A DNA stretch of 64,000 nucleotides from assembly GCA_001244265.2 (NCBI GenBank), contig CDLV01000006.1:2790001-2854000 (forward strand), in the 5' to 3' direction. Below are positions 7,151 through 56,383 of this stretch, piece by piece. The first letter of the stretch is position 1; every line of letters starts with the position of its first letter. Both the position numbers and the translations under genes were made by a program. This DNA comes from Microbotryum violaceum. Taxonomy: Eukaryota. Under the pieces are notes generated by a model. The model was not told the DNA's origin and made no database searches. It saw nothing but the letters and a program-made list of their open reading frames with translations.

Positions 7151-7899
7151 CGAGCTTGGGCACGGCTAACAACAGGAGAGAGGAAAGAGGTGCGCAGAAC
7201 AGAGCAGGCCCGAGCGCGTGGCTTGGGCGAGGGCTCAGCAGCTCAGCCAGGACCCCAGAAAGCCCAGCCAGAGGCGCTTGTGGAAAAACGCCCTTTTTGG
7301 CCTTTTCGTCAAAGTTGTTTTTTACCCTATTTTGGCCCCAAAATGTCAAAATTTCCATGCGCCTCGGAAGTGTTATCAAAATGTGTTCTACATGCTCCAA
7401 AAATCGCTCAAAAGTCCTCGAAAACGCGTTCCGAGCGTTTGCGGGCGCGCGGCGGCCTATCGAAAGTGGCTCGCGGCGCGCGTCGCTTTGGCTGGTGTTG
7501 CGCGTGGCTCCAGGCATCAAACAAGCCTTCTTTGCTTTGCTAATGGGCTCGCTACTTCGTTGTCAGACCTCCGTTTGACTGAACTTGAGCTCCTTGTATC
7601 CGCGGAGGCATTTGTGCGGCTTGTAGAGATTCTACCGGCGGCATCTCGCAGGCCGGGCACGCTCCGAAGTGTGGCAAATCTTTGCTCGGCATGTGCGCTC
7701 GTGCTGATTAGGCGCTCGTCGGGGTAACATGAGGTGGGGTCCGTGGTTGAACGATATGTAGTCGTTGACGGGCCTAATGACTCGATGACCTGTCGACTAT
7801 CAATCATGCGGAACGGCATAGTGCCATCAATGAGGTGTGTGGAATAGCATGTTTTCTTGATGAGGCGAAGCTCCTGTACGACGACATTTGAGAGTAAAA

Positions 7900-10558
7900 C
7901 CAACGAGGCGAGCGTGTCTTGGTTGCAGTGGTTTGTTGTCACTTTTGCTGTAGATGTATCGCACTGTAGCAGACAAGACTTGTGTCAAATGAGAGCGTCA
8001 CAGCTCAACCTGCCACTCCTTAAAACAACGTACCAATTCCGATGGACAGCGTTTCTTCTCCATAAGCAGTTTGATCGCAACTGAGTGAATACATGCCACG
8101 CTTGAGGCCAAAGCAGATCAGAGATCCAATCTCCAATGGTGTGGCAGTGGTTACAGCTCCGTCAAGCGATCCAAAATGAGGATAGCGTTGTGCTAGCGCT
8201 CCGTACTGCTTGGTTCTTTCAGGGAGCATTTCCTAAAAGTGCAGGAATAACAAAACATTAGATCCACTTGCTTCATTCCCTGATTTCAGCGACAACTCAC
8301 TTGAATGCGGCGATCCTCAATACAGGCATTCTTCTGAATCTCGTTTGTTGTGAGCGCTCGGGCCACCTGGCCACCAGTCCAGCGAAAGCTCCTTGCTGTG
8401 CCCGCCATGTCTTCAAAGCGAGATGTTCCCATGGACTGGACCAACCCTTTCAAGACGCGTGAATGTACTGCACTGCGGCCTTGCTCTGTATTGCTAATCC
8501 CTACGCCTGCCTCTCCGCGACCTGTGTGGCTCGATTCCATCGGCCTCCCTTTGAGTAGTAGAACAGCTCTGAGGTGGCTACACTCATGAGCAGCTCGATG
8601 GGCAATCAAGTTGGCCCAGCTCAGCGAGAATTTGGTATCGCGAGCATCGACAAGAGGCGGAAGTTTCAAGTGTGTGGGCTGTGTAGTACCGAGCACGCAT
8701 GAGCTTAGATCTAATTTACGACAGTTGAGCTTGGTAGGCGCACGATTGGACGTAATGAGCTGTTTGCCTTCTCAATGGCCTCGAGAACGTAGCGTTCTTC
8801 AGCTTGCCTATCAGCTTCATCGTAAGCGATTTGCACGTCGAGTCTGGTCAATGAGAAAAGAGGGCAATATGAAATCCGGATTTAAAGGTCGAACGCTTCA
8901 GCGCAACTTGTGGCACAGAGAATTGTTCACTCACAAGGCTGCCTCAACGTCAAAGTCCAGAGCTGCAAGCGATCGAATTGCACGCTCGACAGCTTCCCGT
9001 TCATTTGGGTCCAGTTTCACATCACCTTGGCACATGCTACGCCGCATGCCGTCGAGAGCAGAATCCAGCATCTCGGTGTGAAGCAGATCTTGACCTTCTT
9101 TAGGCAGTACGATCATAAAAGAAAGCATTGGCACTCACTTTGGTTCCCGCAACCGGGGGGTCAGGTCCGCTGAACATATCAGGGAGATCACCCGGAGTTT
9201 CGTAGATGCGTGGCGGACCAATTGATCCGATCAACTCGTGGCGAAAAATGCCCTTCATACGAAGTTCGCGCTCTAAATTGAGGTCTTCTGAGAAGTATGG
9301 AGTGGTTCGCATCCTGGATCGACACTTCGTGTCGTCTACGTGTAAATTGAATGTTAGGCCGTTTGCTTCCAGTTTCGCGCAGACACGATCCATGTTGGAT
9401 TTGTCGAGGCCGAGGCGCATCCTGCTTGATGTTGCTCGGTCCATTCTGCAAGCACCTCGATCATTCAATATGAGGTTGCATTGGACGAAAGGATCACGGT
9501 ACTCACTGCAGTTTGCGGCTTGTCGAAGCGCCGATTGTAGGCTGCAGCACTCTCAGAGCCATCGGAGATGCCAGTGCCATGGCTTGCTCGAAGTCGCGGA
9601 GTGCTTCGGACCGCACAAAGCCTCGCATTGATTTGCCCTGGACCATCCGCTCGTGCTTGACCGTAGCCGCTTTCACCAATCCTTCCAAGATGTTCGCTCC
9701 GTCAAATTCTCCTGAGGCCACACCTTGCGCGAATCGTAGATACACGGTCCCTTGACCACTCTCATCCAGGATCTCCTCTAGTCCATGATGTCGTCGGTAG
9801 ATGGCCGAGAGAAGTGTATCGCCCACGACATGTTTCTTGTTAGTGTATTTGCGAGTTGCGCCAGTAGCATATTGACGTCGAAGAGCTTCTCGACAGGATG
9901 GGTTTTTAGGTAGCTTTGCGCATTCTTCACACTGTAAGCTTGGTCCGTCCTTGTTGGGCGACCCTCGAACGCTGTACTTGCGACAATTCACACTGATGAT
10001 GCGCGGTGCTCGATGATCGTTGCGCCACTTCCACTCATTCGCTTCCAATTTGTCCACCTCCTTCCTTTCGAGCTCCGTCATTGGTCGTTTACCAATTTTG
10101 GGATAGAGTCGCAAATAAAGCGTCCGTCGAGGAGGGGCCCCGCCACCCTGCGCCGCAGTTGATGAAAGATAATGTATCGCCGCTTCAGACGTAAGGCCGG
10201 GGCACGGTCCTAGCGAGGGACCGGGAGCCATTGGGCCAGAGGCGATAGGTCTGAAGAATTTGCTGATGGGTTGGAGGTTGACACACTTCTTATTGCCGAG
10301 ATGTAGTTCGAATCGTGCCTTGCACAGCAAGGCCGCCATTGGCACCAAGACATAACATCGTCCACCCCGCACGTATTTTGGATTGTTGATGTCGACATAC
10401 GATCCCGGGCAAAGTTCTTCGACTTTTTCGGCAAACCTCCTGAAAAGAGGCGGATGGTCGCGAGCCCACTTCGTGTGCTCCTCGGGGGTGAGCTCTCGAG
10501 CTTTTGTTGGATTCGATGCCTTGGTGACGGCCTCTTGAAGTCGAGGAGTTGGCGGCAT
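7900..10558 (-). pseudogene. Degenerate P-element-like transposase, central catalytic part apparently missing
   Basis: MALASPMALRVL...ASTSRKLQ resembles the P-transposase SPxAY...LPSxRTL motif. LHVDDTK resembles the first catalytic LxFDEM. Stops and frameshifts follow. Confidence 0.55.
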
Positions 10559-10606
10559 CTTTGAGGATGCTGCGACTCGTTGATTTGATGTTGCTGCCTT
10601 GCCGGA

Positions 10607-11919
10607 CTATGCTGACGTGCTCTTGCTGCCGAGTGTTTCGGGACCGGATACCCTGCCAGAGTTTGTCTTGGGCTTTGCTCCCGTGGCACTGGTGAATTCA
10701 ATCTCGTCCGGATCTTCGACAGCGCCAACCAGAGAGGACAAACGACAGAATTGACGGAGCCGTGACATGTGGGCGCGCGCTGCTTTGAACGACCCAATCC
10801 CGAGCACCTCCGTCTCCACTGCATTAATCGTGGCCGGCCCGCACGAGTAGCTGTCTTCCTGTTGTTCCGTCTTAGGAGTAGAAGGGATTTCATTTTTGAT
10901 GTCCAGCTTCAGAAAGTTGAACAGCGCAAGGACAGCCGTCTGAGTAGCCGCGTTGATCGGAATGGCCGAGAGTGAGTTGATCACAGACCACGTCCGCTTG
11001 TGCATGTTGATGCGGGCTAAGACCCAATGATTATCGGAGCAAAGGGGTAAGAACCAGATTGACTTCGAGGTTGGCGCGTTGCGCATGCAATCGCTTAGCT
11101 CGATGAGGTTACGATACTGGGTTGGCGGGCCGAAATAGTGGGCGTTGAAGATCGAATGAGGATCCGAACCGGAAGGGCGAGCCAGTACCAGAGAGATGAC
11201 GGTAGAGGGTATGAGTCCATACGTTGTTTCGGAATCGGAATTCTGCACTCGTCCAGCTCGAAGGACGCTTTCAATTGACAAGTTCACCGCGGCTTCACCG
11301 AGCCAATCATGACCTGGGTAGAGACGCAAATAAGCAAGTTGCCTCAGATACGAGATGAATACGAGTGGCCAGCTGAAGGATTGGTGTACTGACTTAAGAA
11401 TCTCAGGAGATAAACCAAACTCGTTCCACTTGCAAGAAGAGGCAATGGTAGAAGCCCGTCTTGCTCTTGCCATTGCAGTCCGTTCAGTATGCGACGTGCG
11501 ACAGTGATACGGTTGCGTTCAGTTTCGTTGATAACGACGATTTTGTCCATCCATTGTTGAGATCGCAGCGCCCAGCTTTGAACATCTTTCGCTCGGTCGT
11601 ATTGCGACCATAGCCGATCAGCGCCGAGCGGCAAACACGTCAACGCGACGGCCAAGGATCGATATCCATTTTTGCGTGCGTTAATCAGGGCATCGGTGGC
11701 GAGAAACGCGTCTCTGATCTGGAGAGTCGGATAGGGTAAGGTCGAATACTGGTTGGGCTCGTCTTTGGACAACTCGATGCAAAGAGACACGTCGGCAGGA
11801 GCGACATCGAAGGCGAGGAGCTCGGCGATCGTCTTGTTGGTGAGCGGCGATAATCGATCGAAGTCATCGTCGTTCAAATAGTAGTCCTGGACTTCGTCGA
11901 GAAACAAGCATGGGATCAT
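10607..11919 (-). pseudogene. Ulp1/C48 SUMO-protease-like region of the transposon ORF (frameshifted)
   Basis: WLGEAAVN...LPLCSDNHWVLARINMHKRTWSVINSL...QQEDSYSCGPATINA gives the HW, (D/N)SL and QxDxxSCG C48 motifs. The sequence is split between ORFs 11344-11919 and 10607-11473. Confidence 0.75.
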
Positions 11920-12495
11920 GTTGTCGTGCTATGCTTCAATGTCAGAACGAAGTGAAGCGGAACCTGGGCCCCTTCAATATCAGCAGTGGCAACTATTGGC
12001 ACCTAATCCCTAACAGCGACTGCACTAAAGTGATTACAAAAAATGACTAGTGACCTGTACAGGGGCGAGCATCGCGAAGCGCGTCTCGATGGCGAACGGG
12101 CCCAAAGTCATGCCGAAGGCTGCTCAGGGTAGGCCAAAGTTGCGTCGACCCACGGGAAAAATGTCAAAATTTGCAAAGGCGCCTCGGGGGCAAAACGTGT
12201 ATTTCGTCCCAAAATGTCAAGTTTTTGCAATGCGCCTCGACGATTTTCGGGATTTTGGGTCCTCAAAATGTCAGAAATAAAAATAAAAAATGCGCCTAGC
12301 TTTCTGGGGTCCTGCTCAGCCGGGCTCGGCTCGGCTCAGGAGGGCGTGCTAATTGTCGATTAGATATGCAGTTGACCCGGCAAATAGTCCGAATAGGATC
12401 CCCCACTCGCACCCACAGCCACGCGCTGGTTCCCCTCGATTGACAACTGAAACCCGCGACCTACACCTCCCACACCTCCCACACCTCCCTCCAAG

Positions 12496-13994: not shown

Positions 13995-14727
13995 TCGGCC
14001 TCAAACTTTCTTCCGTGGCCCCTTCTCCAGATTTTTTCATTCACGGTCACTCTCCGAAGCGTGGCCTAGCCGAGCAAAGCCGTGAAAATCTTCACACTTG
14101 GTCAAGATACGCAACACTTTCTCAAGAGTCAAATCTCGGAAGGTGTTGCCGAGATCGAGATCATCCCGGTCGAGTGTTGCCCGCCCCTAGTTCGAAACGC
14201 CAGCGTGCCGTCGCGCTGTCTTCGAGATAAGCATGTTCTTGGTCGACGGCATCAACGTAATTGAGCATTTGTGTCCCCGACTACCCCTCTCCGACTTGTC
14301 GCGGTCGCGGATGCCTGGAAGTGGGAGTGTTCGCAAGGTTTTGTAGCAACCGTTGTGTGACAGCGTTAGGCTCCCGGACGTTGCCTGACTTCTTGTGTTC
14401 GACCAACTTCCATAAATCCAAAGCTAGGGGTAGTCGAGGAGACTTTAAATACTCAATAGCCTCTGATGCCGTCGGCCAAGAACATGCTTATCTCCAAAAC
14501 GGCGCGACGGCTGGCGTTTCGAACAAGTGGCGGGCAGCACGTGAACTCGACCGGGATGATCTCGATCTCAGTAACACCTTCGGGGATACGAATCTTGAAG
14601 AAAATGTTGGTGTACCTTGACTAAGTGCCAAGATTTTCACAGCTTTGCTCGGCTAGGCCACGCTTTGGAGAGTGACCGTGAACGAAAAAATCTGGAGAAG
14701 GGGCCACGGAAGAAAGTTTGAGGCCGA
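13995..14727. mobile_element. Foldback/MITE-like element with ~290-bp imperfect inverted arms
   Basis: TCGGCCTCAAACTTTCTTCCGTGGCCCCTTCTCCAGATTTTT at 13995 is mirrored at 14727. Pairing can be followed inward to ~14290/14421. No TSD is evident. Confidence 0.8.
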
Positions 14728-14900: not shown

Positions 14901-15236
14901 GACGGCACACTGTCCGCTTTCATCGACTCCGCCTACCACTGCACTTCAGTTTGGTTCCTCACTGCCGATCGCCGATCCACTTGCCACCCCTTTCAAGTTG
15001 CCAACCCCTGCGTCGGTGAGACTGCCACACACAACCCCGCTAAACGCAGCGAGTTCCATTGAGCGCGTGATGATTTGATGATTGGTCATGAATCGCCGCG
15101 TATAGCGGAGTTGTGTGCGGCAGTCTCACCGACGCAGGGGCAGGGGTTGGCAAAAGGGTGGCGGCAACTTGAGGATCGGCAGTGAGGAACCAAACTGAAG
15201 TGGTAGGCGAAGTCGATAAAGCGAAGGTGCCCTGTC
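14901..15236. repeat. Second foldback element (~150-bp imperfect arms)
   Basis: CACTTCAGTTTGGTTCCTCACTGCCGATC and CCCCTGCGTCGGTGAGACTGCC recur in reverse complement at ~15119-15202. Confidence 0.8.
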
Positions 15237-22364: not shown

Positions 22365-22711
22365 TGTGAAGTTGCGACGACTGCTCAAGCGGTGGTAAGG
22401 CTCTGATCGACGGACCAAGGAGACCAGACCAAGAAGTTGCTTGATTACACACCTGCTCAAGCACTACAGTGAGTTATAATAGCTAGTAAAAGTAAAGGAA
22501 GAAGGAAGTGTAGTGCTCACCTGCTCAAGCAGTGGTAAGGCTCTGATCGACGGACCAAGGAGACCAGACCAAGAAGTTGCTTGAGCAGGAGAGAGAGGCG
22601 CGGAGCCAGTTGGCTCGGGTGAGCGCGCGGCTGGTCCAAAAGGAGGTAAGGTGAGACCAAGAAAAGGAGACATGATGCGAGAAGGAAACACAGGAGGTTG
22701 TCAATCTCACA
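22365..22711 (-). mobile_element. 3' LTR of a Ty1/copia element (347 bp)
   Basis: TGTGA...TCACA termini, preceded on the minus strand by a G7 polypurine tract (22712-22718). It has an internal 64-bp direct duplication (22381-22444 / 22521-22584). Confidence 0.85.
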
Positions 22712-24600
22712 CCCCCCCGACTTCGAGTATCAGGGAGAGCAGACGCCAAGTCGACCGCGATGCCGAGCAAACAGATCGCGAGACAAAGCCTTGGTGAAGA
22801 TATCGGCCGTCATCTCGCCGGTGGTGATGTACTGGACACTGATGTCGCCCAGGGAGACCATATCCCGGACAAAGTGTTCGCGGAGACGAATGTGCGAGTG
22901 CGAGCGTGGAAAACCGGATTCTTGGTGAGAGCGTTGGCGCCTTGGTTGTCGCCATAGATGAGTACAGGTCGGGAGGAAGGAAGCCCAAGCTCACCGAAGA
23001 GCTGACGCAGGAAGATAGCCTCCTGGCCAGCATGTGACAAGGCAAGGTACTCGGCGTCGCAAGTAGAGTCGGCAACCCGGGACTGGAGGCGAGATGACCA
23101 CGAGACGGCCGCGGCTGCGAAGACAAAGGTGTAACCCATGGTCGACTTGGAAGATAGGACGCAAGCACCCCAGTTACAGTCGGAGTAGCCAACCAAGGGC
23201 GCTGGATCCCACGAGCGTAGCGGAGGCCGTGAGACAGAGTGCCAGCGAGGTAGCGAAAAGCGTGCTTGACAGCGCCCCAGGCAGCGGCAGATGGTGACTG
23301 AGAGAACCGAGCCAAGTAACCGACGGTGTAGGCCAGGTCGGGGCGAGTACCGGTCGATGCGTACATGAGGGAGCCAATTGCCTGCAGGTACCGAGTGCGA
23401 TCCGGGAATGGGGTGGGCTGAAGCTCGACTTCGAGGCGGAGATCGGCCTGCATGGGCGTGGCAACAGGGTGGGCATCGGACATATCAAAACGAGCGAGGA
23501 TGTCCTTGAGGTACTGCTCCTGACTGAGGGAGATGGCGCCATCTGCAGAACGCCGAATCTGGATACCAAGGACGTACTCTGCCTCACCAAGGCGTTTGAC
23601 ACCATAGCGCTGCTCGAGGCCCTGGAGGGTGCGCTCGATCTCTGGGAGGGAAGGGCTGATCATGAGCAAGTCATCGACGTAGAGCGCGATATAGTGGCGC
23701 TCATCACCGGCAGTTCGGACATAAACACAGTGGTCAGACTCCGTGGCGACGTAGCCAAGAGCCGACAAGGCGGAGTCGATCTCGTCGTTCCAGATACGTC
23801 CAGCCTGGCGCAAGCCGAAGAGGGACCGGTGCAGCTGGAGGACCTTGCCGGGCATGTAGATTCCTTCGGGCACGCGAATGTACAGAGGTGTGTCCAGTTT
23901 ACCGTGCAGATAGGCCTTATCGATGTCAGCCTGGTGGACGTGGTACCCATGAGCGGCTGCAAGGGCCAGGAGTGCGCGAATGGATGTGAACTTGGCGACG
24001 GGTGTAAAGGTCTCGTCGAAATCGATGCCTGAACGCGGAGAGTCACCGCGAGCAACCAGTCGGCCTTTGTAAGACTTGATTCGGCCGTGTTGGTCGCGTT
24101 TCGTGCGGAAGACAAAGCCTGAACCGAGAACCTTAGAGTCCACGGGCACGAGGGACTCATCAATGGGTGTGAAGGCCGAGAAATCGCGGGATAGCGAGTC
24201 GAATTCGGCCTGGGCAGCGAGACGCCACTCGTCTGCTTGCGGGGTTGCCATCGCAGCGCGCCAGTGAGGAGGTCCCGGGCAGGTGCGATCAGGTCCGACG
24301 GGTCAGCGAGCGAGGTGTTGAGCAGAGCAGCGGCTCCAGAGGCGAGGTAGGCAACAGGCGGAGGCGAGTGAAGCGCAGCATCCATGTCGTCAGGGAAATT
24401 CTGCGCAAGGCAGATGGAAGCAACATCACCCGAGCGTGGCAAGAGGTTGATGGGGTCGGGCGATATGGATCGAGTGGGCGAGGGCGGCGCAGGCAATGGA
24501 TACGGTGGCTAGCCTGCCAAGTCGGCCCACACTCACCACACAGCTTGGCCGTCGTCAGCCGCCCCGAGTCCCCGCGCCAGAGCGCACTCAGCCAGGCCCA
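22712..24600 (-). mobile_element. 5'-truncated Ty1/copia pol fragment (RT plus RNase H, frameshifted)
   Basis: [79 protein letters not shown]. No gag, protease, integrase or 5' LTR is seen. Confidence 0.93.
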
Positions 24601-25034
24601 GGCCTGCCAGGACCCGGGAAAGCTCAGCCCAACGTGCGTCGTCTCGAAAAACGGCGATTTTTGGCCGATTTGTACACCGAATATCCCTATATAAAGGGTG
24701 TATGTATTCCGGTGTAAGACCAGATTATCGGGTTGTGTTGAAAAAATCACTCTACCATGAAAAATCACGTCATGTAGCATATCACAAGGCATAAATGGGC
24801 CCGAAAGGTACAAATCTCCGAGACGCACAATGTGGGACCAAAGTTGCCATCCTCGGGACCAAAGTGCCCTGCTATTCGCGCGATTAACCTAATTCCGATT
24901 GGTAAACGCACCTTTCTTCCGGAGCAAACGCACCAAGCTTGCGCGAAGAGTGCACCATTTGTAAGTGAACTTGCACCTTTCTACCAGGGTAGATGCGTCA
25001 AGCTTCGGGGGTAAACGCGCCCTAACGCGCCCAA

Positions 25035-25352
25035 CAGCAAAATGGCCACGCGCGCGAACCCGCCTAAGGATTCGCCCGAGATTACGCGCGCTTAACGGTG
25101 CATAAGAACGCGCATAAGAGCGCTTACGGACCGCTTTGCGTATGCAAACAAAGCGCGCGAGGAGTCTTAAGCGCGCCGCAAGCGCGCCGTAAGTGCGCTG
25201 TAAGAGTCCATTATCTAGGGTACACTTAAGCGACACTTAATAACGCGCGCGCGGCTTAACGAGTGGTTAAGGGCGCTTAAGAGCAGCTTTAGGCCGCTTA
25301 ACGACTGCTTTACGAGGTTTCGCGCGCTTACGCGCGTTTGGCCATTTTGCTG
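25035..25352. mobile_element. MITE-like element with 14-bp TIR CAGCAAAATGGCCA
   Basis: The TIR is inverted at 25339-25352. The interior is rich in GCGCGC/TAAG/CTTA modules. No clean TSD. Confidence 0.6.
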
Positions 25353-25414
25353 ATGCCCGCGTAATTGGTGATTGCACCATTTGCTCGCGGCATTGACCCA
25401 TCTTCCTTTTAGAA

Positions 25415-37714: not shown

Positions 37715-39080
37715 CTAGACACATCCATAGTTTTGCCACCTTTGTCTCCCCTTGCGCTGCGCTTTTGCTGCCTCCTTCTCCGCGATGGCGACGATCCGCC
37801 TCCTTCGTTCCCTATTCCACTGGCTCAAGCGCTCGTCCCAGAAGAAGGCGGCCGCGCTTTGGGCTTTGACACCCGACCTCCTACTCGCTTCAACTTTCGA
37901 GAACCCCATAAGCCAGGTACTGTAATATGTCACGAGCTGCAAGTCCGAATATCTGTAAGCGACCAGGCGTGACGCAGCGGCTTGGCTTTGCTGGCCGGGA
38001 TGAGAAGTAAAGATGCTCCGGGACGACGAAGGCTTGCCGGGCCAAATTTCGGGGGAGGAAGGCGCTGAAGGGTGTGATGCACTCGAATCTTCAGCAGTCA
38101 AATGGGAACATCGAGAATTGTTGTATCTTTGATCCCATTCTTGATCGAATACGTCTTGCGCAGCCTCAAATATCCGGCGTCGACGTCCTCTTGCTATTGA
38201 GTCGGCCTGTGCACTCCGAAGAAAGATTTAGTATCGCATTGGAAAGAAACAGGTCTTAGTGGTTTCGTAAGGCACACCAGGGGAATTTGGAGAAGTCTCG
38301 TGATACGGGAGATGCTTAATCCCGTTCTGCGTTGCATTGACCTACTTCCCCACCTCAGCTAAGGGTTTCTAAAGATCCGGCGCACGGACTGATCACGACT
38401 CACTTTTTGCTCTTCCCCAGCAGAAACATCGCCGCCACCCTGATCAATTTCTCCTTTTTGGTCCCCTCTTCTTGAATATGCGGTCTCGTGATCACTCGTG
38501 TGGACGGGACTTGGATATCCTCCATTTCTCCGGCCGACGGAAAGCTCTTGCTCGTGACGTCTTCGTATGAGTCACTGTCGGACGAGTCGTCCATTTCCGC
38601 AAGCTGCCGCGAGCACGACGAAATAAGCTCATCGTCATCGACCACTTCATCAAAGTGTTGGTCTTCGTGTTCGATAGGGTGGATCTTATGAGTCACGGCC
38701 TCTTCTTCAGATGTCACTTCTTCGGCCGACTTGGATTGCGCTCTTCGGTCGTTCTCCTTTCGTGATGGCCTGTCTGCGACGGTCCGCGCGTGATGCAGCG
38801 GCGCGCACTGATCAACGATGTCGCTCTCGCTCGAACAGAGGTCGATCCATTCGATAGGAACGCGCGACTTCTGCCTCGAAATGGAACCTGTGTTCAATGA
38901 GCCGTTGGACATGGGGGCGTGCAGATCCGTCGAAGATCGTGGGCGTGGTCGTTGAAGATGACCAGAGTTCGATAATGGCGTGGGAGGTAAATCACTCCTT
39001 TTTCCTGGGCCAGGTGCCGCTCGTACATGTTGGTGGGGGGTCTTGGGGAAGTAGGTCCTAGCCGAGTTCGTTGTTGGCAT
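37715..39080 (-). CDS. Hypothetical protein with two HTH-like motifs (paralogue A)
   Basis: Spliced KLIRVAAMFLLGKSKKSMQRRTGLSISRITRLL and YSDLQLVTYYSTWLMGFSKVEASRRSGV, homologous to paralogue B. Confidence 0.6.
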
Positions 39081-39828
39081 CGAGATGACGGGGACAGTGA
39101 AGGCGCGAGAGATCAACACTCAACATGTCAGGCGACGGCACGTCAGAGCCCCCCTTCGATCGGTGATCAGACCGCCCTGACCCCTCTTCTGACGGACAAC
39201 CCTCCTGTCTCAGCGCTCAGCCGCCAGCTACGGCGCTAACGGGCACCGTCAGCACGTGGAAATCGTCTCGCACGCTCACATGACTAAGTTACTCGAGGGT
39301 CTTCAGTTCAGGAAGGTCTTTCTCCGTTGTAATTTCGGTTTTTTGGTGTTGAAGAACCTAAATCTCGAGTGACCTGGTACAAGGGGACGTGCAGCAGCAC
39401 GTCCGGCACGTGCTTGACCCCTCTCTTAATTCGAAAGCTTTCCTATGCTTTCCTTTCCCCTTTCATCGGAAGACCTAGCACGGGCCTCTGGCTTTGTCTC
39501 GAAGTAGCAGTTTCCTCGAAGATGAGACAAACCTATACACCCGCACAAATCCCAAGGAAGCACTACTGTGCAGGCAGCCAGAGAAAGATCTGCTTTTTCT
39601 TGCCTGCTTCTAGCCCTAACCCCTCCAAAAAAAACCTACGTGAAACGCAGGAATTCTGCCAACGCACAACAAACAAAGGTTTATGGTACATCAACAAATT
39701 TGGAGCCCGGTGGGGAACTTATTCGGCTTTGACGGGTCAACTCGATCATTTCTGCAGAAATTCTCGGGAGCGTGAAAATCGTCAGTGGCCGAGCGTTTCA
39801 TGAACAGATCGGAAATGATTGCACAGTG

Positions 39829-41131
39829 TTACGGAAAACACACCTTTGTTTTTTCCCTCTGCTTCGTGTTCGCCACCTGCTTCTCGGCGATAGAGATGAC
39901 CCTTCTCCTTCGCTCGCGGATTGCTTGGGTCTGGGGTCCTTTTTCCCAAAAAGCACGGATCGCGCTTCGCTCGTTGACACCCGAATTCCTGCTCGCTTCG
40001 GTCTTGGACGCTCCCTTAAGCCACTGGACGTAGAACGTCACGAGTTGTTGTTCCGAGTACTTGAAATTCATGGACGACACGTAATTCGAAGGACGATAAT
40101 TCGCATCGGGTGTCGAAGGAGGACTCTGAGGTGGAAATTGTTCGGCAGATGATGAGGAAGTTGGGATGGGAACCGAGACCTTCGATTTGGTTACCGTGGT
40201 TGAAGTGAACGAGAAATTGTACTTGGTTTCCCATTCTCGATCGAAGACTTCTTGCGCAGCTTCAAGGATCCGGCGTCGACCTAATTGCTTTCCGGTGCTG
40301 GACTGAGATGCATAAAAAGGGTAATCCCCAGTGAATGAGCAACAAAGTGTGTGCGGAACCCACAGAGAGGCAGTATTACCTACAGGTTTATTATTGATGA
40401 ACTTCCTGATCTGGGAGAGGCTCAATCCCGTTCTGCGATGCATTGATCTACGAGAGCCTGAGTCAGCTTCAGTCGTCAAATATTCACACCAACGCCATCT
40501 TCACTCACTTCTTGCTCTCCCCCATTAAGAACATGACTGCGACCCTGATCAGACTCTGTTCCTTTCTGTCGATAGAGTCGAAGAAGGCCGTATCCATTTC
40601 CTCGATAGAAAACTCGCTCTCGCTCGAATCGTCATCGCACAAATCGTCATCGCTGGGCTCAACATCCACTCGCACCGGAGCTCGTTGTGGCCTCTCGGAG
40701 GGATTCGAGGATGCGACTGATGGCTGGTAATCGGAATCCTGTTCCTCGAACTCTTCAGCTTCCCCATCCACTGAATCAGATTCTTTGGCTTCGTCATTGA
40801 AAACATCATCATCCTCGACCAAGGTCAACGCCTTTGCCGATTGGTTGAGCTCCTTTCGTGACGTCAAATGTGAGGCGGCAGTCGGAATGATCACCATGAA
40901 TCCGCGACGTGTTCGGCCCGCGAAAGTGACTCCGTCCTTGGTGGTGTACGGGATGGCGAGGTGTGAAGCGGATGTGTGACTCGTCATTGTTGCTGAACCA
41001 CTCTTTGGCTTTGGTGGATGCCAGGCCAGCGCTGCAGGCTGCGGTGGGAGAGCCGACGGAGATTGACATTGATCAGCTTGGACAGTCGAGGACGATTCGG
41101 CCTTTTGCGTTGTGGCAACTGTATCTTCCAT
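39829..41131 (-). CDS. Hypothetical protein with two HTH-like motifs (paralogue B)
   Basis: Spliced SLIRVAVMFLMGESKKSMHRRTGLSLSQIRKFI and YSEQQLVTFYVQWLKGASKTEASRNSGV. The intron position matches paralogue A. Confidence 0.6.
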
Positions 41132-41583
41132 CTTCGTCTCGAGAGCTTGGGTGTTCGACTCCGATCCTAGTCTGTGTCACCGCGCTCGAAGAAGGTCAAA
41201 GTCAGAGGCCACAAGTCAAGCGCTGAGGTGGGGTGCGTTAAGTCCGACAGCGCGAGGGAGTCGTTAGGCGGTGCGCGAGCATCTCCCCGATTCTAAAGCT
41301 CTCCTATCAAAACTTTCTCACTAGTGCTCTTCTCGAGACTTCTCGCGCGCCTTCGACTCTTTTTCTTCTTCGTTTCCGCAATACCGCTGTTTTGCAATAT
41401 CGCTCTCAGTCGGAGATGAAAAAGAAACCTATTCAGATACATGACACAAGGGGAGCTGCTGTGCAAACCAGACACGAACAGATCTCTCCTCTCTCTCCCC
41501 TGTTTCCCTCCTTCCCAAACATGTCTCGTTCCTAAAAAACGCGGGAACCCGGAACACACGCGGCAGACGATGTTTTCTTCTTT

Positions 41584-44500
41584 TTACTTCGAAGCCTTGG
41601 CTTCGGCCATCGCGTTGAGGGCCGAGCCCGCTCGGTGCCAGCGGATCTGGTCGGCGTTAAAGGTGTGGGTCAACTCGATCGTCTCTGGAGTAAGGAATTT
41701 CGGAGATATGTGGATGTTAGCAAAGCTTCGCTATAGATTGAACAAGTACAATGAACACCAGAGACTGACCCGTCTTGCCATCCTTGTGCTTGAGCACCAT
41801 CTCGACTTTGGAGCCTTCAGCGAGGTCCTTAATGCCAATCAGGTCGACCTTGTCGTCGGGCTGAACCTTGTCGTAGTCGGCGGGGTTCTTGAAGTTCAAG
41901 GGGAGCATGCCTTGCTTCTTCAAGTTGGTCTCGTGGATACGGGCGAACGATCGCGTGATGACGGCTGCGCCACCGAGGAAACGGGGCTCGAGAGCGGCGT
42001 GCTCACGCGACGATCCCTCACCGTAGTTCTCGTCACCGATCACGACCCACGGCACACCGGCGTCGCGGTACTCGGCAGCGACCTTGGGCACAGGTCCCCA
42101 TTCACCGGTCAACAAGTTCTGGACCTTGTTGGCCTCACCGTTCGCGGCGTTGATGGCGCCGATCAAGCAGTTCTGCGAGATGTTCTCCAAGTGACCTCGG
42201 TACTTGAGCCAAGGGCCACCGGCCGAGATGTGATCGGTCGTGCATTTGCCGACAGCCTTGATCAGAACGGGCATGTCGGTCGGGTCCTCACCGTTCCACT
42301 TCTTGAAGGGCTTGAGGACCTGGAGACGGTCCGACGAGGGGCTGACGATGACGTTGACCGAGGCGCGGTCCGAGGGAGGGGCCTGGTAGGTGTCTTGTCC
42401 CGGGTCGTAGCCGCGAGGGGGGAGCTCCTTTCCAGTCGGGTCGGAAAACTTGAACTCCTTGCCATCGGCGCCCTTGAGCGAGTCGGTAAGAGGGTTGAAG
42501 GTCATAGAGCCGGCAAAGACCATGGCGGTAACGAGATCGGGGGAGGCGACGAAGGCGTGGGTGGCGGTGTTAGCGTCGTTACGACCGGTGAAGTTGCGGT
42601 TGTATGAGGTGATGATCGAGTTCTTGGTGCCCTTGGGGACGTCCTGTCGGTCCCATTGACCGATGCAGGGACCGCATGCGTTGGCGAGCACGAGACCTCC
42701 AGCGTCCTCGAGGACCTTCATCTGTCCGTCACGCTCGATCGTAGCGCGGATCTGCTCAGATCCGGGGGTGATCGTGAAACCGGCCTTGGCCTTGAGGCCA
42801 TGGTCGGCCGCCTCCTTGGCGATCGAGGCCGAACGGGACATGTCCTCGTACGAGGAGTTGGTGCAGGAGCCGATGAGACCGACCGAGAGCTTCTCGGGCC
42901 AGTCGTTGGCCTTGACGGCGGCGGCGAACTTGGACAGAGGGGTCGCAAGATCGGGGGTGTAGGGGCCGTTGATGTGGGGCTCGAGCTCGGAAAGGTTGAT
43001 CTCGATCACGCGGTCGTAGTCGGCACCGTTATCGGCACGGAGGTTGTGCTGGAAGGCCTCGGCGTACTTGCGGATCTCGGGTCGCTTCGTCGCGTCGAGG
43101 TAGTCGCCCATGCGCGAGTTGTAAGGGAACAGGGAGGTGGTCGCACCGATCTCGGCACCCATGTTGCAGATGGTGGCCATACCAGTGCACGACAACGAGT
43201 TGACACCCTCGCCGAAGTACTCGACGATGGCACCCGTTCCACCCTTGACGGTGAGGATACCGGCAACTTTGAGGATCACATCCTTGGGGGTCGTCCATCC
43301 GCTGATCTTGCCCGTCAATTTGACACCGATCGCCTTGGGGCACTTGAGTTCCCAAGGAAGGTCGGCAATGACGTCGACGGCATCAGCTCCTCCGACACCT
43401 ACGGCGATCATACCAAGACCACCGGCGTTGGGGGTGTGCGAGTCGGTACCGATCATCAAACCACCGGGGTATGCGTAGTTTTCGAGGATGATCTGGAGGG
43501 TGAGGGGGAGCCGTTCATTTAGTCGCAGTGCCAGAGCGGGTTCGCTGTAGACTAAGAGCAAGTAATGACTGACCTGGTGGATGATACCCGAGCCGGCCTT
43601 CCAGAAACCGATGCCGTACTTGGCGGTGCAAGTGGCGAGGAAGTCGTAGACCTCCTTGTTGATGTCGTTGGCGCGGGCTAAATCCTTGGTACCACCGACC
43701 TGGGCTTCGATTAAGTGATCGCAGTGGACGGTCGTGGGGACGGCGACGGTGGGCAAGCCGGCGGACATGAATTGAAGGAGAGCCATTTGGGCGGTAGCAT
43801 CTTGGCAAGCAACTCGCTGGAAGTGTACGGAAAAACGAGGCGGAGCGGGGTCAGCGCTGGTAAATCGACCGTGTCAAGCGTACAGCCTGGGCAAGGGCCA
43901 CTGATGCGGCTATGCTCGATTTGGAAACATAGCCAGAGAAAAGAACTTACGTCGGGTCGGAGCTTGATGTATGAAGCACCCCGTCGGACGTCGGCATCAT
44001 GAGGGTTGTCGAGATGGCCGTAGAGGACCTTCTCCGAAAGCGTGAGCTTGCGGTCGAGGCTGTAGCGTGGCGAGAAGTGTAGATAATGAGGTGCAGGTCA
44101 GTTCAATAGCTCTTGGACTGAGGCATGAAGATGAGGTCCCTGACGCGTGTATGTGTGGGTCGAGTACAGCATCTGGGTGGCCGAACTCGGGTGGTAAACA
44201 TGGCGGCGCTCCTACTGCACCCGGCGCCGCTTGCATGTTCACGCGTTCACGCGCGAATGGCGGCTGCAACTGCGGCGCGAGGCGAGGCGGAGCACGCCGC
44301 GAACACACCCGAGGCAGGCAGCGGAAGCGAGCGAGCTCACGGGCTGCCCACACCGGAACCGTGCTCCGCATTGCTCTCACGAATCAAAGCAAGACAAGAG
44401 ACACTCACCGTTGACGAACGACAGCGAGGTTATCCTCGATGCGCTGATAATTGATGTACTTGTCTTTCTCAAACAGGGACATGGCCACCTTGGTCGCGCC

Positions 44501-51124: not shown

Positions 51125-53851
51125 ATGTCTGCTGAACTTTCCCACAAGACTATTGTCGGTCAGTCGCGTATATCATGGAGTATGATGCTTTGGATCACAT
51201 AATCAATATCGTCTTGCTTATCATTAGATGGCTGGTTCCGTGAGATCTCGGACGAGCAATGGCCTGGTACGTCGTGGACACTGCTGTTCAACTATGCTCC
51301 CCGAATGCACAGCGACTAATAATGCGACTGGGTTTCTGATACCTTCTTGCAGGTCAGGTATGTTGCCATGCAGGCTCTCCGCTCATTTAACACGTTCATC
51401 ACTGTTAGTTCCTGGCAATCGATCTGCTCCCGACCGTGCTCATTTGGCTGATACTTTCTTTAATTCATGAATCTACAGAACTTGTTTCATCTTCTCCTTC
51501 AGGCGATGACACTCCGCGTCAAGAAGATCCTGCACGTCGAGCAATCGCTCTACCAGGATGTGCTAGTCTTCGAGTCGACCGACCACGGCAACGTGCTCGT
51601 CCTCGACGGCGCGATTCAATGCGTCGAGCGCGACGAGTTTTCGTACCAAGAGATGATCGCCCACTTGCCCCTCGCCTCGCACCCCAACCCGCAGAACGTC
51701 CTCGTCATCGGAGGTGGTGACGGTGGTGTCTTGCGCGAGGTGCTCAAGCACCCCAGCGTCACCTCGGCGACCCTCTGCGACATCGACGAGGCCGTCCCCC
51801 GTGTGTCGAAAAAGTACTTGCCCCACATGGCCGCCGGCTTCAATGACCCTCGCGTCACCGTCCACATTGGTGATGGCTTCAAGTGGCTCGACACCCACAA
51901 GGGCGAGTTCGACGTCATCATCACCGATTCGTCCGACCCGGTCGGCCCCGCCAACTCGCTCTTCCAGAAGCCTTACTTCCAATTGCTCAGAGAGGCACTT
52001 AAGCCAGGAGGATCGATCTCGACCCAGGGCGAATGCATCTGGCTCCACTTGCCCTTGATCGACGACCTTATGAGTATGACCCGCACCTTGTTCCCTGTCG
52101 CCGAGTTTGCTTACACGAGCATCCCGACCTACCCCTCGGGCACGATCGGCTTCGTCGTCTGCACCCTCGACGAGAACCGCGATTTGCGCACCCCGCTTCG
52201 CGATATTGAGAACACGCGCTACTGGTCCAAGGCCGTACACAAGCAGGCTTTCACCCTCCCGACTTTCGCTCAAAAGGTCGCCGACAAGTCGAAGACGAAG
52301 AAGGCCGTTACTACTGGCTCGTCATCGGCCAAGTTGTCTTCGCCCAAGAAGGTCTTGCTCCTTGGCTCTGGCTTCGTCGCCGCCCCCGCCGCCGAGTACA
52401 TCTTGCGCCGCCCCGAGAATTCGTTGACGATCGCTTGCCGCAACGTCGAGACCGCCAAGGCGCTCGCCAGTGAGCTCTCGCGCGAGGCTCAGGCCATCTC
52501 GGTGGACGTCGCGGACGAGGCTTCGCTCGACGCGGCCGTCAAGGAGCACGACCTGGTCATCTCGTTGATCCCTTACACGTACCACACGGCCGTGATCAAG
52601 TCGGCTATCAAGTTCAAAAAGAACGTCGTCACGACCTCGTACGTCTCGGACGCGATGAAGGCGCTCGAGGCCGAGGCGATCGAGGCTGGCATCGTCGTCA
52701 TGAACGAGATCGGCGTCGATCCCGGAGTCGACCACGTTTGGGCGATCGACATGTTCGACCGCGTCAAGCAAGACGGAGGCAAGATCAAGTCCTTCATCTC
52801 GTACTGCGGTGGTCTGCCCGCGCCTGAATCGGCCGACAACCCGTTGGGCTACAAGTTCTCGTGGTCCTCGCGCGGCGTCCTGCTCGCGTTGCTCAACTCG
52901 GCCCGTCTCTACTCCAAGGGCGAGCTCGTCGAAGTCGATGGCAAGGAGTTGATGAAGCACGCGCAACCTTACTTCATCTCCCCCGCGTTCGCGTTCGTCG
53001 CGTACCCGAACCGTGACTCGACTTCGTTCCGCGAGAAGTACGACATCCCCGATGCCGAGACCGTTATCCGCGGTACGCTACGTTACCAAGGGTTCCCGGC
53101 CTTCATCAAGGCGCTCGTCGACATCAAATTCCTCAACGAGAGCCCCGTGGAGTACCTCGCCAAGGGATCGACTCCCCTTGCTTGGAACGAGGTTACGGCC
53201 AAGGCGCTTGGTACGAGCGACAAGTCCGAGAAGGCCTTGGTCGAGAAGATCAAGTCGTTGACGACTTTCCCCAACCAAGCTGAGGAGGAGCGTATTGTGT
53301 CTGGCTTGAGGTGGATCGGCCTCTTTGGAGAGGAAAAGGTCACGCCCCGCGGCAACTTGTTGGACACGTTGTGCGCAACGCTCGAGGCCAAGATGCAGTA
53401 CCAGAAGGGCGAGCGTGATATGGTCATGTTGCAGCACAAGTTCGAGATTGAGAACAAGGACGGATCGAGGGTGAGTTTCCGATGGTGGGACACTGTACTG
53501 AAAGATGTGCTTGGCTGACTATTTCTCGTCGCTGCATCTAATCTTGGTAGGAAACCCGCACGTCGACTTTGCTCGATTTCGGTGCGCCCGTCGGCTCGGG
53601 CGGTTACTCGTCCATGGCCAAGTTGGTTGGTGTGCCCTGCGGTGTCGCGACGCAGCTCGTGCTCGACGGCGTCATCAACAAGCCCGGAATTCTCGCACCT
53701 TGTAAGTCACACTCGCCATGCAAAGACATGAAATGCGAAACTGATCTTTGTTGGAGTTTTCGTGTGGATTGCAGATACTCGGGATATCGTTGACCCTCTT
53801 TTGGTCGAGTTGCGCAAGGAGGGCATCGATATGGTTGAGAAGACGCTTTGA
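51125..53851 (+). CDS. SPE3-LYS9: Chimeric spermidine synthase-saccharopine dehydrogenase (saccharopine reductase)
   Basis: [41 protein letters not shown], then [47 protein letters not shown] in one frame. Confidence 0.96.
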
Positions 53852-54131
53852 ACGGAAAACCTAGTCGAATGAAGGATTTGGACCTTGATGTTCTTTAAGA
53901 TTGGTGCAATGTGATTCGTAACCTTGCGATCAAAGTCACGACGCATGATGATGGGACGTGGCTGATGTGATCTGACACGTAGCTCAGCCAATTGACTTGC
54001 CTTGCTCGAGTTCAGCGTGCCTTGCCTTGCCGCGCTTGCTGGCTGTCCTCTCCCGCCTCGGCTCGCGCGCGTTCTCGTCTCGGGCTGTCTCGGCTACAGT
54101 CAGTCGCCTGCCACTCGCCCGCCCGTCTCGC

Positions 54132-56198
54132 CAGGACCGCCGAAAGCCCAGCCGGAGGCGCATTTTTTTTTTGACATTTTGAGGACCCAAAATCCTGGAA
54201 ATCGTCGAGGCGCATTGCAAAAAATTGACATTTTGGGACGAAACACACGTTTCGCCCCCGAGGCGCATGTCCAGTTTTTGACATTTTCCCGTGAGTCGGC
54301 CCAATTTTGGCCTACCCTGAGCAACCTTCGGCATGAGTTTGGGCCCGTTCGCCTTCGCTTCGAGACGCGTTTAGCGATGCTCGCGCCTGAACAAGTCACT
54401 TAGTACTAGCCATCTTCGGTAATCACTTGAGTTAAGTGGCTGTGAGGGATTAGGCCGATTCGATATTGAAGGGGCGCAGGTTCCGTTCCGCGTCACTTCG
54501 GTCCGAGATTGGAGCATAGCACGACAACATCATCCCATGCAGGCCTTGAACGATGCCTTCGATTGATCATTGCCACTCACCAACATGAACATGACGATCG
54601 CCGAGCTCCTCACCTTTGATGTCGCTCCCGCCGACGCGTCTCTTCACATCGAGTTGTCCAAAGACGAGCTCACCCACTACTCGACCTTATCATCTACTCG
54701 AGGCCGTTGAGAAGGCAAACAGCTTCTCACGACCAATCGTGCGTCTACCAAGCTCAACTATCGAAATTTTGGTCTAAGCTCACGCGTGTTCAGTTCTACA
54801 CAGCCCACAAACTTGAAACTTCCGCCTCAAGTTGTCGATGCTCGCGATACCAATTTCTCGCTGAACTGACCAACCTGATTGCCCATCAAGCTGCTCATAA
54901 GTGTAGCCACCTCAAGCTGTTCTACTCAAGGGAGGCCGATGGAATCGAGCGACCCAACTCGCGGAGAGGCAGGCGTAGGGGTTAGCAATACAGAGGAAGG
55001 ACGCAGTGCAGCACATTCATGCGTTACAAAAGGGTTGGTACAGTCCATGGGACCATCTCGCTGCGAAGACATGGCGGGCACGACAAGGAGCTTTCGCTGG
55101 ACTAGAGGTGACCAGATGGACCGAGCGCTCACAACACACGAGGATCCAGATGAATGTCTATACTGAGGATGGCCGCATTCAAGTGAGTTGTCGCTGAATT
55201 TAGGAGCGAAGGCAACTGGATCTAATGTTTGGAGAAACAAGCAGACGGAGCACTAGCACAACGCTATTCTCATTTTGGATCGCTTGACGGCGGAGCTGTA
55301 ACCACTACCACAACATCGGAGATCGGATCTCTGGTCTGCTTTGGCCTCAAGCGTGGCATGCATTCAATCAGCTGCGATCAAACTGCCTATGGAGAAGAAG
55401 TGCTGTTCATTGGAATTGGTACGATGCCTTGAATGGCAGTTGAGCTGTGAAGTTCTCGTTTGACACAAGTCTTGTGTCCTACAGTGCAATACATCTACAG
55501 CAAAGTGACAACAAACCACTGCAACCAAGACACGCTCGCCTCGTTGGTTTTACTCTCAAATGTCGTCGTACAGGAGCTTCGCCTCATCAAGAAAACATGC
55601 TATTCCACACACCTCATTGATGGCACTATGCCGTTCCGCATGATTGATAGTCGACAGGTCATCGAGTCATTAGGCCCGTCAACGACTACATATCGTTCAA
55701 CCACGGACCCCACCTCATGTTACCCCGACGAGCGCCTAATCAGCACGAGCGCACATGCCGAGCAAAGATTTGCCACACTTCGGAGCGTGCCCGGCCTGCG
55801 AGATGCCGCCGGTAGAATCTCTACAAGCCGCACAAATGCCTCCGCGGATACAAGGAGCTCAAGTTCAGCCAAACGGAGGTCTGACAACGAAGTAGCGAGC
55901 CCATTAGCAAAGCAAGGAAGGCTTGTTTGATGCCTGGAGCCACGCGCGACACCAGCCGAAGCGACGCGCGCCGCGAGCCACTTTCGATAGGCCGCCGCGC
56001 GCCCGCAAACGCTCCGAACGCGTTTTCGAGGACTTTTGAGCGATTTTTGGAGCATGTAGAACACATTTTGATAATATTTCCGAGGCGCATGCGAAATCTT
56101 GACATCTTGGGGCCAAAATAGGGTAAAAAACTTTGACAAAAAAGCCAAAAAAGGGCGTTTTTCCGCATGCGCCTCTGGCTGGGCTTTCGGGGGTCCTG
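54132..56198 (+). mobile_element. Non-autonomous deletion derivative (~2.07 kb) of the 7248-12314 transposon; 6-bp TSD TCTCGC
   Basis: 32-bp TIR CAGGACC(G/C)CCGAAAGCCCAGCC(G/A)GAGGCGCAT with TCTCGC on both sides. It is colinear with copy 1 except for loss of ~8790-11730 (junction ~54697). Confidence 0.92.
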
Positions 56199-56383
56199 TC
56201 TCGCCTGTCTCTGCCAGTGCCTGCCTGTGCGACCGTCGAGGCGCGCTCAAGTCCCTGGCTGCTAAGCGCTAAGCGCTCTTCCACCTGCCCTCCACCTCAT
56301 TTTCCCACCTCATCACCCTCACCACCACCGCCTCTCGCTCCTCCTCCCAGCTCACCTCTCGAGGCCATCCATCCCAGAAGACG

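What the first reader, a model, noticed from the sequence alone, without database searches (positions are those of the whole stretch)
7248..12314. DNA transposon family joining a Ulp1-type protease to a P-like transposase, with 6-bp TSDs
Seen: two independent insertions (7248-12314 and 54132-56198) share CAGGACC..GAAAGC TIRs, and each has an exact 6-bp TSD (CTCAGC; TCTCGC). Copy 1 encodes, in order, a C48 protease, a Cys-rich segment (PCPGL...NC...CEEC), a 'SPMAL...STSRKL' helix motif and LHVDDTK. Known: canonical P elements have a THAP domain and 7-8-bp TSDs, while Ulp1 domains are reported mainly from Mutator and Zisupton-type elements. Inference: this is a poorly described fungal lineage of P-related transposons whose protease might counter SUMO-dependent silencing or process the polyprotein.
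Basis: partly seen in the sequence, partly recalled or inferred. Interest (0 to 1): 0.8.

Follow-up and report, generated by a model that had tools for sequence, protein, structure and literature searches.

The report
Fungal P-type transposon; duplication is 8-bp
These are two dead copies of a real, abundant jumping gene of an anther-smut fungus whose enzyme is built like the fruit-fly P element enzyme with a SUMO-type protease on its front, but its target duplication is the ordinary 8 bases, not the unusual 6 that was claimed.

Summary
Both insertions are real, but the ends were misread by one base. The termini are AGG..CCT, and the target duplications are 8 bp (GCTCAGCC, GTCTCGCC), not 6. 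Of 42 family loci examined, 31 had both ends: 19 exact and 23 near-exact 8-bp duplications, none exact at any other length from 4 to 11. The rest holds. Full-length copies (~6.55 kb) encode a C48 protease, two Cys/His modules, an HTH and a DDE core; a relative's predicted core matches Drosophila P transposase (Z 27.4, next 13.4). The layout is widespread in Agaricomycetes, with the protease triad kept in 80 of 88 homologues. No THAP was detected. Window copy 1 is dead (about 1.48 kb of the catalytic core deleted, a stop, a shortened TIR); copy 2 is a 2.07-kb deletion derivative. Side results: three pairs of copies with exchanged duplications (likely inversions) and a 242-bp MITE family with the same ends. 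The scan reported this family at least seven times before, on other DNA of this genome. I found no description in print; Repbase could not be checked.

The parts
7241..7248 (.). Left 8-bp target duplication of copy 1 (GCTCAGCC)
7249..12313 (-). Copy 1: dead, internally deleted copy (5065 bp) of a ~6.55-kb P-type transposon; gene on the minus strand; 91% alike to six full-length copies, which are 97-98% alike to each other
7249..7277 (+). TIR at the gene's 3' end, starting AGG (family TIR about 29-31 bp)
7340..7348 (+). Single subterminal 9-bp repeat at the 3' end (candidate transposase site; role inferred)
7526..9101 (-). Remnants of the C-terminal part of the gene, in several pieces (introns and/or frameshifts)
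   Evidence: tblastn with P0004 and P0001
9098..9126 (-). Junction of the ~1.48-kb deletion that removes the second Asp, DxxH, insertion domain and catalytic Glu
   Evidence: contig of run X17 has 1498 other letters here
9325..9345 (-). LHVDDTK, first catalytic Asp of the RNase H fold
   Evidence: Asp in 106 of 110 aligned homologues
9506..9568 (-). HTH motif SPMAL..STSRKLQ
   Evidence: PF12017 over cut-off in homologues P0105 and P0114
9920..10207 (-). Second Cys/His module (PCPG..GGG..NDH..C..CxxC); confidently modelled, no clear fold match
10283..10372 (-). First Cys/His module (C/H-x2-C..H..C); first Cys is Gly in this copy; weak likeness to the zinc-finger region of TUT4
10607..10609 (-). 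Premature stop in the linker between protease and Cys/His modules (open in L035)
10751..11311 (-). C48 / Ulp1-type protease domain; His 11029-11027, Asn (for Asp) 10978-10976, Gln 10861-10859, Cys 10843-10841
11347..11919 (-). N-terminal coding segment of no known family, conserved in homologues; probable ATG at 11919
12158..12273 (+). Three subterminal 9-bp repeats spaced 53-54 bp at the gene's 5' end
12299..12313 (+). TIR at the gene's 5' end, ending CCT; only 15 bp here because 7-8 bases are missing behind it
12314..12321 (.). Right 8-bp target duplication of copy 1
54125..54132 (.). Left 8-bp target duplication of copy 2 (GTCTCGCC)
54133..56197 (+). Copy 2: 2065-bp non-autonomous deletion derivative, member of a recurrent ~2.07-kb class; no protease, no DDE core
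   Evidence: the same joint is in contigs of 4 of 4 runs
56198..56205 (.). Right 8-bp target duplication of copy 2
24609..24832 (+). Truncated copy of a 240-245-bp MITE family with related AGG..CCT ends and 8-bp TSDs

Best explanation
A THAP-less branch of the P superfamily of cut-and-paste transposons, spread across Basidiomycota. The full 6.55-kb element makes one spliced gene of roughly 1,700-1,800 codons: unknown N-terminal part, Ulp1-type protease, linker, two Cys/His (probably zinc) modules, HTH, DDE RNase H core with a P-type helical insertion, helical C-terminus (order shown; splicing inferred). The Cys/His modules probably take THAP's place and bind the asymmetric subterminal repeats (three at one end, one at the other), the HTH binds the TIR, and the core joins the AGG..CCT ends to G+C-rich targets with an 8-base stagger (8-bp TSD shown; binding roles inferred from P). 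Gap repair leaves deleted copies and MITEs that are moved in trans (copies shown; mechanism inferred). The protease is most likely an active deSUMOylase carried with the transposase to loosen SUMO-dependent repression or to free the enzyme from SUMO (activity inferred from the conserved triad; substrate about even odds). The two window copies are dead.
For: 8-bp TSD in 19 exact / 23 near-exact of 31 paired loci, 0 exact at other lengths; 9 of 12 MITEs likewise. Model of relative P0002: Foldseek 6PE2/6P5A E 1e-11 and 4e-11 against 6e-5 for Hermes; VIA Z 27.4, 389 aligned, rmsd 4.1, P residues 139-560, next Z 13.4. Atlas neighbours are P/THAP9 clusters by features (0.92-0.94) and structure (TM 0.71-0.78). 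D, D, DxxH, E kept in 106, 108, 107/110 and 93 of 110 homologues. PF12017 over cut-off in 2 of 20 proteins scanned. Family profile matches yeast Ulp1 best (E 4e-16), then SENP1 (4e-11), with bacterial CE-clan enzymes at 1e-6 or weaker. Triad His-Asp/Asn-Cys in 80 of the 88 homologues that cover the domain. 243 homologues at E<=0.001; 1092 clusters at E<=1e-30.
Against: No sequence-level match to P transposase: phmmer and two profiles miss 6P5A/6PE2 in the PDB sequences, and Pfam's P RNase H and GTP-domain models hit none of the proteins scanned; identity in the structural match is 13-14%. The fold was predicted for a 61%-identical relative, not the window copy. Termini are AGG..CCT with a 3' T, whereas P has a terminal G that contacts GTP. 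Microbotryum copies have Asn in place of the triad Asp. No intact autonomous copy was shown: none of the 8 paired long loci scanned for ORFs was modelled to completion, and expression was not shown. No biochemical data on the protease.
Confidence: 0.85

Rival explanations
1. One reading: a P-related lineage with CAGG..CCTG ends and 6-bp TSDs.
For: In the two window copies, and 2 more of the 23 with a TSD, the flanking bases are C and G, so this reading fits them equally well.
Against: 19 of 23 copies with a duplication lack C or G at these places and the outer bases covary as part of the 8-mer (the sample was enriched for such copies by my choice of loci); 121 termini genome-wide have A, G or T before AGG; MITE matches start at the A of AGG.
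Confidence: 0.01
2. The element belongs to another superfamily that has 8-bp TSDs, such as KDZ/Zisupton (Ulp1 in Zisupton is recalled) or hAT.
For: Zisupton, Dileera and hAT make 8-bp TSDs in fungi (PMC12730594); Hermes is the third Foldseek match; no KDZ structure was among the listed matches to compare with.
Against: P stands 14 Z units above any other transposase; Atlas neighbours are P/THAP9 only; no KDZ or hAT Pfam family appeared for any of 40 proteins scanned; PF12017 does.
Confidence: 0.06
3. The protease cuts its own polyprotein after a Gly-Gly, as some viral CE-clan proteases do (recalled), releasing the transposase.
For: One long fusion protein; a GGG motif downstream of the protease is kept in 91-101 of 110 homologues.
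Against: In the model the GGG (residues 122-124) lies in a block of pLDDT 90-96 between the ligands of the second Cys/His module, so a cut there would split a folded domain; closest solved relatives are SUMO proteases.
Confidence: 0.15
4. The protease removes ubiquitin or NEDD8 rather than SUMO (for example to stabilise the transposase or steer repair), or is only a binding module.
For: CE-clan deubiquitinases also match the family profile (E 1e-6 to 1e-3); Ginger1 transposases carry either Ulp1 or OTU (PMC2836005); Asp-to-Asn in Microbotryum.
Against: Ulp1 and SENP1-3 score far higher; the catalytic His, Cys and Gln are conserved across the family, which a mere binding module would not need.
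Confidence: 0.3

Closest known systems
Drosophila P element transposase (PDB 6P5A, 6PE2) and THAP9; P superfamily
   Same: HTH, split RNase H with helical insertion (Z 27.4 over P residues 139-560); 8-bp TSD; ~30-bp TIRs; different spacing of internal repeats at the two ends; many internally deleted copies; exchanged TSDs at rearrangements as for BuT5/P (PMC3698922).
   Different: No THAP detected; Ulp1 protease plus two Cys/His modules instead; protein about twice as long; AGG..CCT ends with 3' T instead of G; 13-14% identity; by motif spacing only part of the GTP-contact set is kept (acid at D528, S409, D444 positions; Gln for N447; acidic residues where P has K400/V401) - inferred, no residue-level alignment was returned.
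Fungal P elements in Repbase (Pucciniales, Allomyces; 17 entries per PMC5751038)
   Same: Fungal, same superfamily label.
   Different: That survey found only 11 fungal P copies with Pfam P domains and calls them single occurrences; this family is abundant and escapes those Pfam models. Whether the Repbase entries belong to it could not be tested.
Ulp1-bearing transposons: Mutator/MULE, Ginger1 (PMC2836005), oomycete Crypton (PMC3212892), Zisupton (recalled)
   Same: C48 protease carried by a DNA transposon; role in transposition proposed but not shown in the passages read.
   Different: Different transposase; here the protease is N-terminal to a P-type core, in Ginger1 it is C-terminal.
Dada and IS3EU (6-7-bp and 6-bp TSDs)
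   Same: Would have been the comparison for a 6-bp TSD; Dada shares the DxxH motif.
   Different: TSD is 8 bp; targets are varied G+C-rich sites; ends differ from IS3EU's TAYGG.

Membership tests
P superfamily (broad, by catalytic core) | RNase H DDE core with P-type helical insertion domain | tested here: met
   on relative P0002; acidic residues conserved; deleted in the window copy
P superfamily (broad, by catalytic core) | HTH domain before the core (PF12017) | tested here: met
   over cut-off in 2 of 20 homologues; structural match starts at P residue 139; no Pfam hit in the window copy
P superfamily (broad, by catalytic core) | DxxH motif after the second Asp | tested here: met
   His 110 of 110, Asp 107 of 110; present in L035
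P superfamily (broad, by catalytic core) | TIRs and 7-9-bp TSD | tested here: met
   8 bp in 19 exact / 23 near-exact of 31 paired loci; range from PMC3698922
Animal P element / THAP9 family | N-terminal THAP (C2CH) domain | tested here: not met
   no THAP Pfam hit in 40 proteins scanned; a protease and Cys/His modules of other spacing stand there; fold searches list no THAP, which alone is inconclusive; THAP is animal-only per PMC7776569
Animal P element / THAP9 family | 3'-terminal G that contacts GTP | tested here: not met
   all 31 paired loci end CCT; P's G-1 contact
Animal P element / THAP9 family | GTP cofactor and 17-nt staggered donor cut | not testable with these tools
   insertion-domain fold is shared; residues only partly kept by spacing
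KDZ / Zisupton | KDZ transposase domain | tested here: inconclusive
   no KDZ-named Pfam family appeared, but I did not confirm that the model is in the copy and no KDZ structure was listed; P match is strong
hAT | hAT core and dimerisation domain | tested here: not met
   Hermes Z 10.4, rmsd 7.2, against P Z 27.4, rmsd 4.1; no hAT Pfam hit
Dada / IS3EU | 6-7-bp TSD | tested here: not met
   0 of 31 exact at 6 or 7
C48 / Ulp1 SUMO proteases | His-Asp-Cys triad with oxyanion Gln | tested here: met
   80 of 88 with His-Asp/Asn-Cys, 79 also Gln; window copy His-Asn-Gln-Cys
C48 / Ulp1 SUMO proteases | Cleavage of SUMO | not testable with these tools
   needs an assay

The most novel reading that the evidence does not exclude
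Basidiomycetes harbour a large, unnamed P-type lineage that swapped THAP for a zinc module of undescribed fold, ends in T and so may use GTP differently or not at all, and brings its own deSUMOylase to the transposon ends as a counter-silencing device; in anther smuts its copies serve as breakpoints for inversions, including on a mating-type chromosome.
Probability: 0.25. Interest if true: 0.7.

Novelty: new variant of a known kind. Interest (0 to 1): 0.4.

Why it matters
P elements are held to be rare in fungi (11 copies with a Pfam P domain in one survey, PMC5751038). This family is common in Basidiomycota and is missed by those models, so the P superfamily is probably under-counted in fungi. 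It gives a natural test of whether the GTP cofactor and THAP are needed for P-type transposition, and one more independent pairing of a SUMO-type protease with a transposase. The exchanged TSDs point to a concrete agent of rearrangement in a model for sex-chromosome evolution. The special 6-bp claim falls away, and the family has been reported by this scan before.

Tried and rejected
6-bp TSD with CAGG ends: rejected. One search used a pattern with indels that misplaced four ends (L034, L055, L061, L071); one search repeats it with the first six bases fixed and is the count quoted (it loses L050, which was exact at 8). Sequence searches against PDB found no transposase. Fold searches of the Cys/His region: no Foldseek match at E<=0.001, best VIA Z 4.3 (TUT4, residues 9-90), Atlas best 0.84; none of this shows a new fold, and residues 90-230 were barely tested. 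Empty site for copy 1: none seen; contigs of 2 of 4 runs bridge a junction by 31 or more letters (X2 left; X9 both), X15 by 26. Expression: no RNA holder listed; X17 shows no intron joints and may be DNA. Synteny check of the L045/L048 rearrangement against contig C1: only 440 bp of shared flank, uninformative. No complex prediction was sent: a protease-SUMO pass would come from likeness to solved structures. Literature searches that found no description of the family.
Full report
Observation. The window holds two related elements in opposite orientation, 90% alike over 1.54 kb and 78% over 0.55 kb. The family is abundant: a 22-base TIR pattern gives 181 forward and 179 reverse matches in the 33-Mb genome and none for the control. 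That count includes sister families with the same outer TIR.

The TSD is 8 bp. With ends set at AGG..CCT, the window copies are 7249-12313 and 54133-56197, flanked by GCTCAGCC and GTCTCGCC. Over all loci with two ends (all subfamilies), 23 of 44 have an exact and 27 a near-exact 8-bp duplication, and none is exact at any other length from 4 to 11. For this family alone, 42 loci were examined, 11 had no detectable pair of ends, and of the 31 left 19 are exact and 23 within one mismatch at 8 bp, none exact at another length. The outer bases vary and covary (22 and 23 of 23). My choice of loci favoured termini without a C, so the share of C..G targets in the sample (4 of 23) is not a genome frequency. 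Independently, 121 termini have A, G or T before AGG, and a MITE family with related ends has exact 8-bp duplications in 9 of 12 copies. Targets are G+C-rich (69%) with a lean to G first and C last, which is how both window copies came to look like 6-bp cases.

Anatomy. Full-length copies are 6.54-6.58 kb and 97-98% alike; copy 1 is 91% alike to them. L035 shows the layout: a 674-codon frame with protease, linker, Cys/His modules and HTH, then segments with LHVDDTK, the second Asp, DxxH and the catalytic Glu; introns between them are inferred from frame changes and from the named gene model P0004. Copy 1 lacks about 1.48 kb of this core; the last three motifs are not found in the window. It also has a stop at 10607-10609, Gly for the first Cys of module 1 and a TIR cut to 15 bp. 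Copy 2 keeps only the two ends and belongs to a recurrent 2.07-kb class (same joint in 4 of 4 runs). A 9-bp repeat occurs three times at 53-54-bp spacing at the 5' end and once at the 3' end. Copy 1 sits between a Far11/STRIP-like gene and an LSM12-like gene that point away from it. Its junctions are present in contigs of other runs, so it is not a fresh insertion.

Relatives. The core finds Microbotryum proteins (94% and 61-63%) and Agaricomycete proteins, several with PF02902. A search with the Athelia protein gives 243 hits; the 120 listed carry names of mushroom-forming genera (their class is from my knowledge) and none is named a transposase, though one is called THAP9-like HTH. A profile finds 4728, 3050 and 1092 clusters at E 1e-3, 1e-10 and 1e-30 (unnamed, and the weak ones may include animal P elements). 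In 110 aligned proteins the catalytic and Cys/His positions are highly conserved, and 80 of the 88 that cover the protease keep His-Asp/Asn-Cys. A second family in the same genome (L053, 40-50% protein identity) shares the outer TIR and the layout.

What the core is. A model of P0002 (51 sequences, core mostly pLDDT 80-95) matches P transposase first in Foldseek (E 1e-11; Hermes 6e-5) and in VIA-align (Z 27.4, 389 residues, rmsd 4.1; next 13.4). The Atlas agrees. Against this, no sequence method reached P transposase itself, identity is 13-14%, and only the HTH model PF12017 hits, in 2 of 20 proteins over cut-off. The Cys/His region folds confidently (pLDDT 83) but has no clear match. The protease profile is nearest to yeast Ulp1 and SENP1.

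Mechanism. Shown: TIR element, 8-bp TSD, domain order, deleted derivatives. Inferred from P (PMC7776569, passages and section 8 read): end binding by the Cys/His modules and HTH, cut-and-paste, gap repair. Open: GTP use. P's terminal G contacts GTP, whereas these ends finish in T; by motif spacing the positions of D528, S409 and D444 are kept, N447 is Gln, and K400/V401 are acidic. For the protease I put deSUMOylation at about even odds, another ubiquitin-like target or mere binding at 0.3, self-processing at 0.15. The conserved GGG is inside a folded module, which weighs against a cut there.

Rearrangements. Three pairs of loci without their own TSD have exchanged ones: L045/L048 and L053/L054 on C2, L070/L082-83 on C4. 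This is the signature used for inversions made by P-superfamily elements in Drosophila (PMC3698922, passages). C1 and C2 each carry a pheromone-receptor gene, so they are likely the mating-type chromosomes; 44 of the 121 termini lie on C2 (4.1 Mb), 14 on C1, 16 on C4 and 5 on C3 (3.1 Mb). A synteny check did not confirm the first inversion, so these remain likely, not shown.

Literature. PMC5751038 (passages): fungal P elements only in Pucciniales and Allomyces in Repbase, 11 found by Pfam domains. PMC2836005 and PMC3212892 (passages): Ulp1 in Ginger1, Mutator and Crypton. PMC3706591 (passages) and PMC12730594 (parts 1-3 of 7): Dada, KDZ, hAT7, IS3EU; this family is not in what I read. PMC10502011 and PMC4469406 (passages): Microbotryum TIR elements are not classified further in those passages. 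Nine searches found no description; Repbase, subscription journals and the supplements of these papers were not seen and may hold one. Ulp1 in Zisupton and Gly-Gly processing by viral proteases are recalled.

Verdict. A real, little-described variant of the P superfamily, not a member of the animal P/THAP9 family, and not a 6-bp-TSD novelty. The scan has reported it before on other DNA of this genome. Interest 0.4.

Noticed in passing
L045 / L048 (G000 C2 2087868-2094422 and 2141354-2147897); L053 / L054 (C2); L070 / L082-L083 (C4): Three pairs of oppositely oriented copies with exchanged 8-bp TSDs, as expected from inversions of roughly 50, 65 and 110 kb. The C4 pair are hybrids with one end of this family and one of the sister family.
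   Followed up: partly
L033 (C1) and L045/L048 (C2): Same 8-bp target and similar flanks on the two contigs that carry pheromone-receptor genes; shared flank is only 440 bp at 91%, so it may be a repeat.
   Followed up: partly
window 24609-24832: Truncated copy of a 240-245-bp MITE with AGG..CCT ends; 9 of 12 other copies have exact 8-bp TSDs; five copies on C3 lie at 5.82-kb steps.
   Followed up: yes
L053, L052, L057, L059, L074: A sister family with the same outer TIR and the same protease-transposase layout at 40-50% protein identity.
   Followed up: partly
six full-length copies (L033-L048): C-to-T changes at TCG sites are about 2.4 times as frequent as at other CG sites (24/316 against 22/698), in line with the RIP-like process described for Microbotryum; small numbers.
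   Followed up: partly
protease domain, window 10976-10978: Microbotryum members have Asn where most Agaricomycete members have the triad Asp (Asn in 7, Asp in 80 of 110 rows).
   Followed up: partly
bioRxiv 2025.01.03.631183: A Microbotryum 'Ulp1 protease' gene is reported as RNA-edited at all stages; if it is a multicopy transposon gene the edits could be differences between copies. Gene id not seen.
   Followed up: no
window 13995-14727 and 14942-15202: Two long hairpin-like inverted repeats (arms of 116 and 29+48 bases), possibly foldback elements or MITEs.
   Followed up: no
window 22710-24302 (-): Copia-type reverse transcriptase fragment (PF07727).
   Followed up: no
window 25030-25356: A second repeat of about 330 bp with its own inverted arms, many copies genome-wide.
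   Followed up: no
window 38133-41693: Diverged tandem duplication with a period near 2.1 kb; ORFs without Pfam match.
   Followed up: no
window 51464-53518 (+): Spermidine synthase-saccharopine dehydrogenase fusion gene, a known basidiomycete feature (recalled).
   Followed up: no
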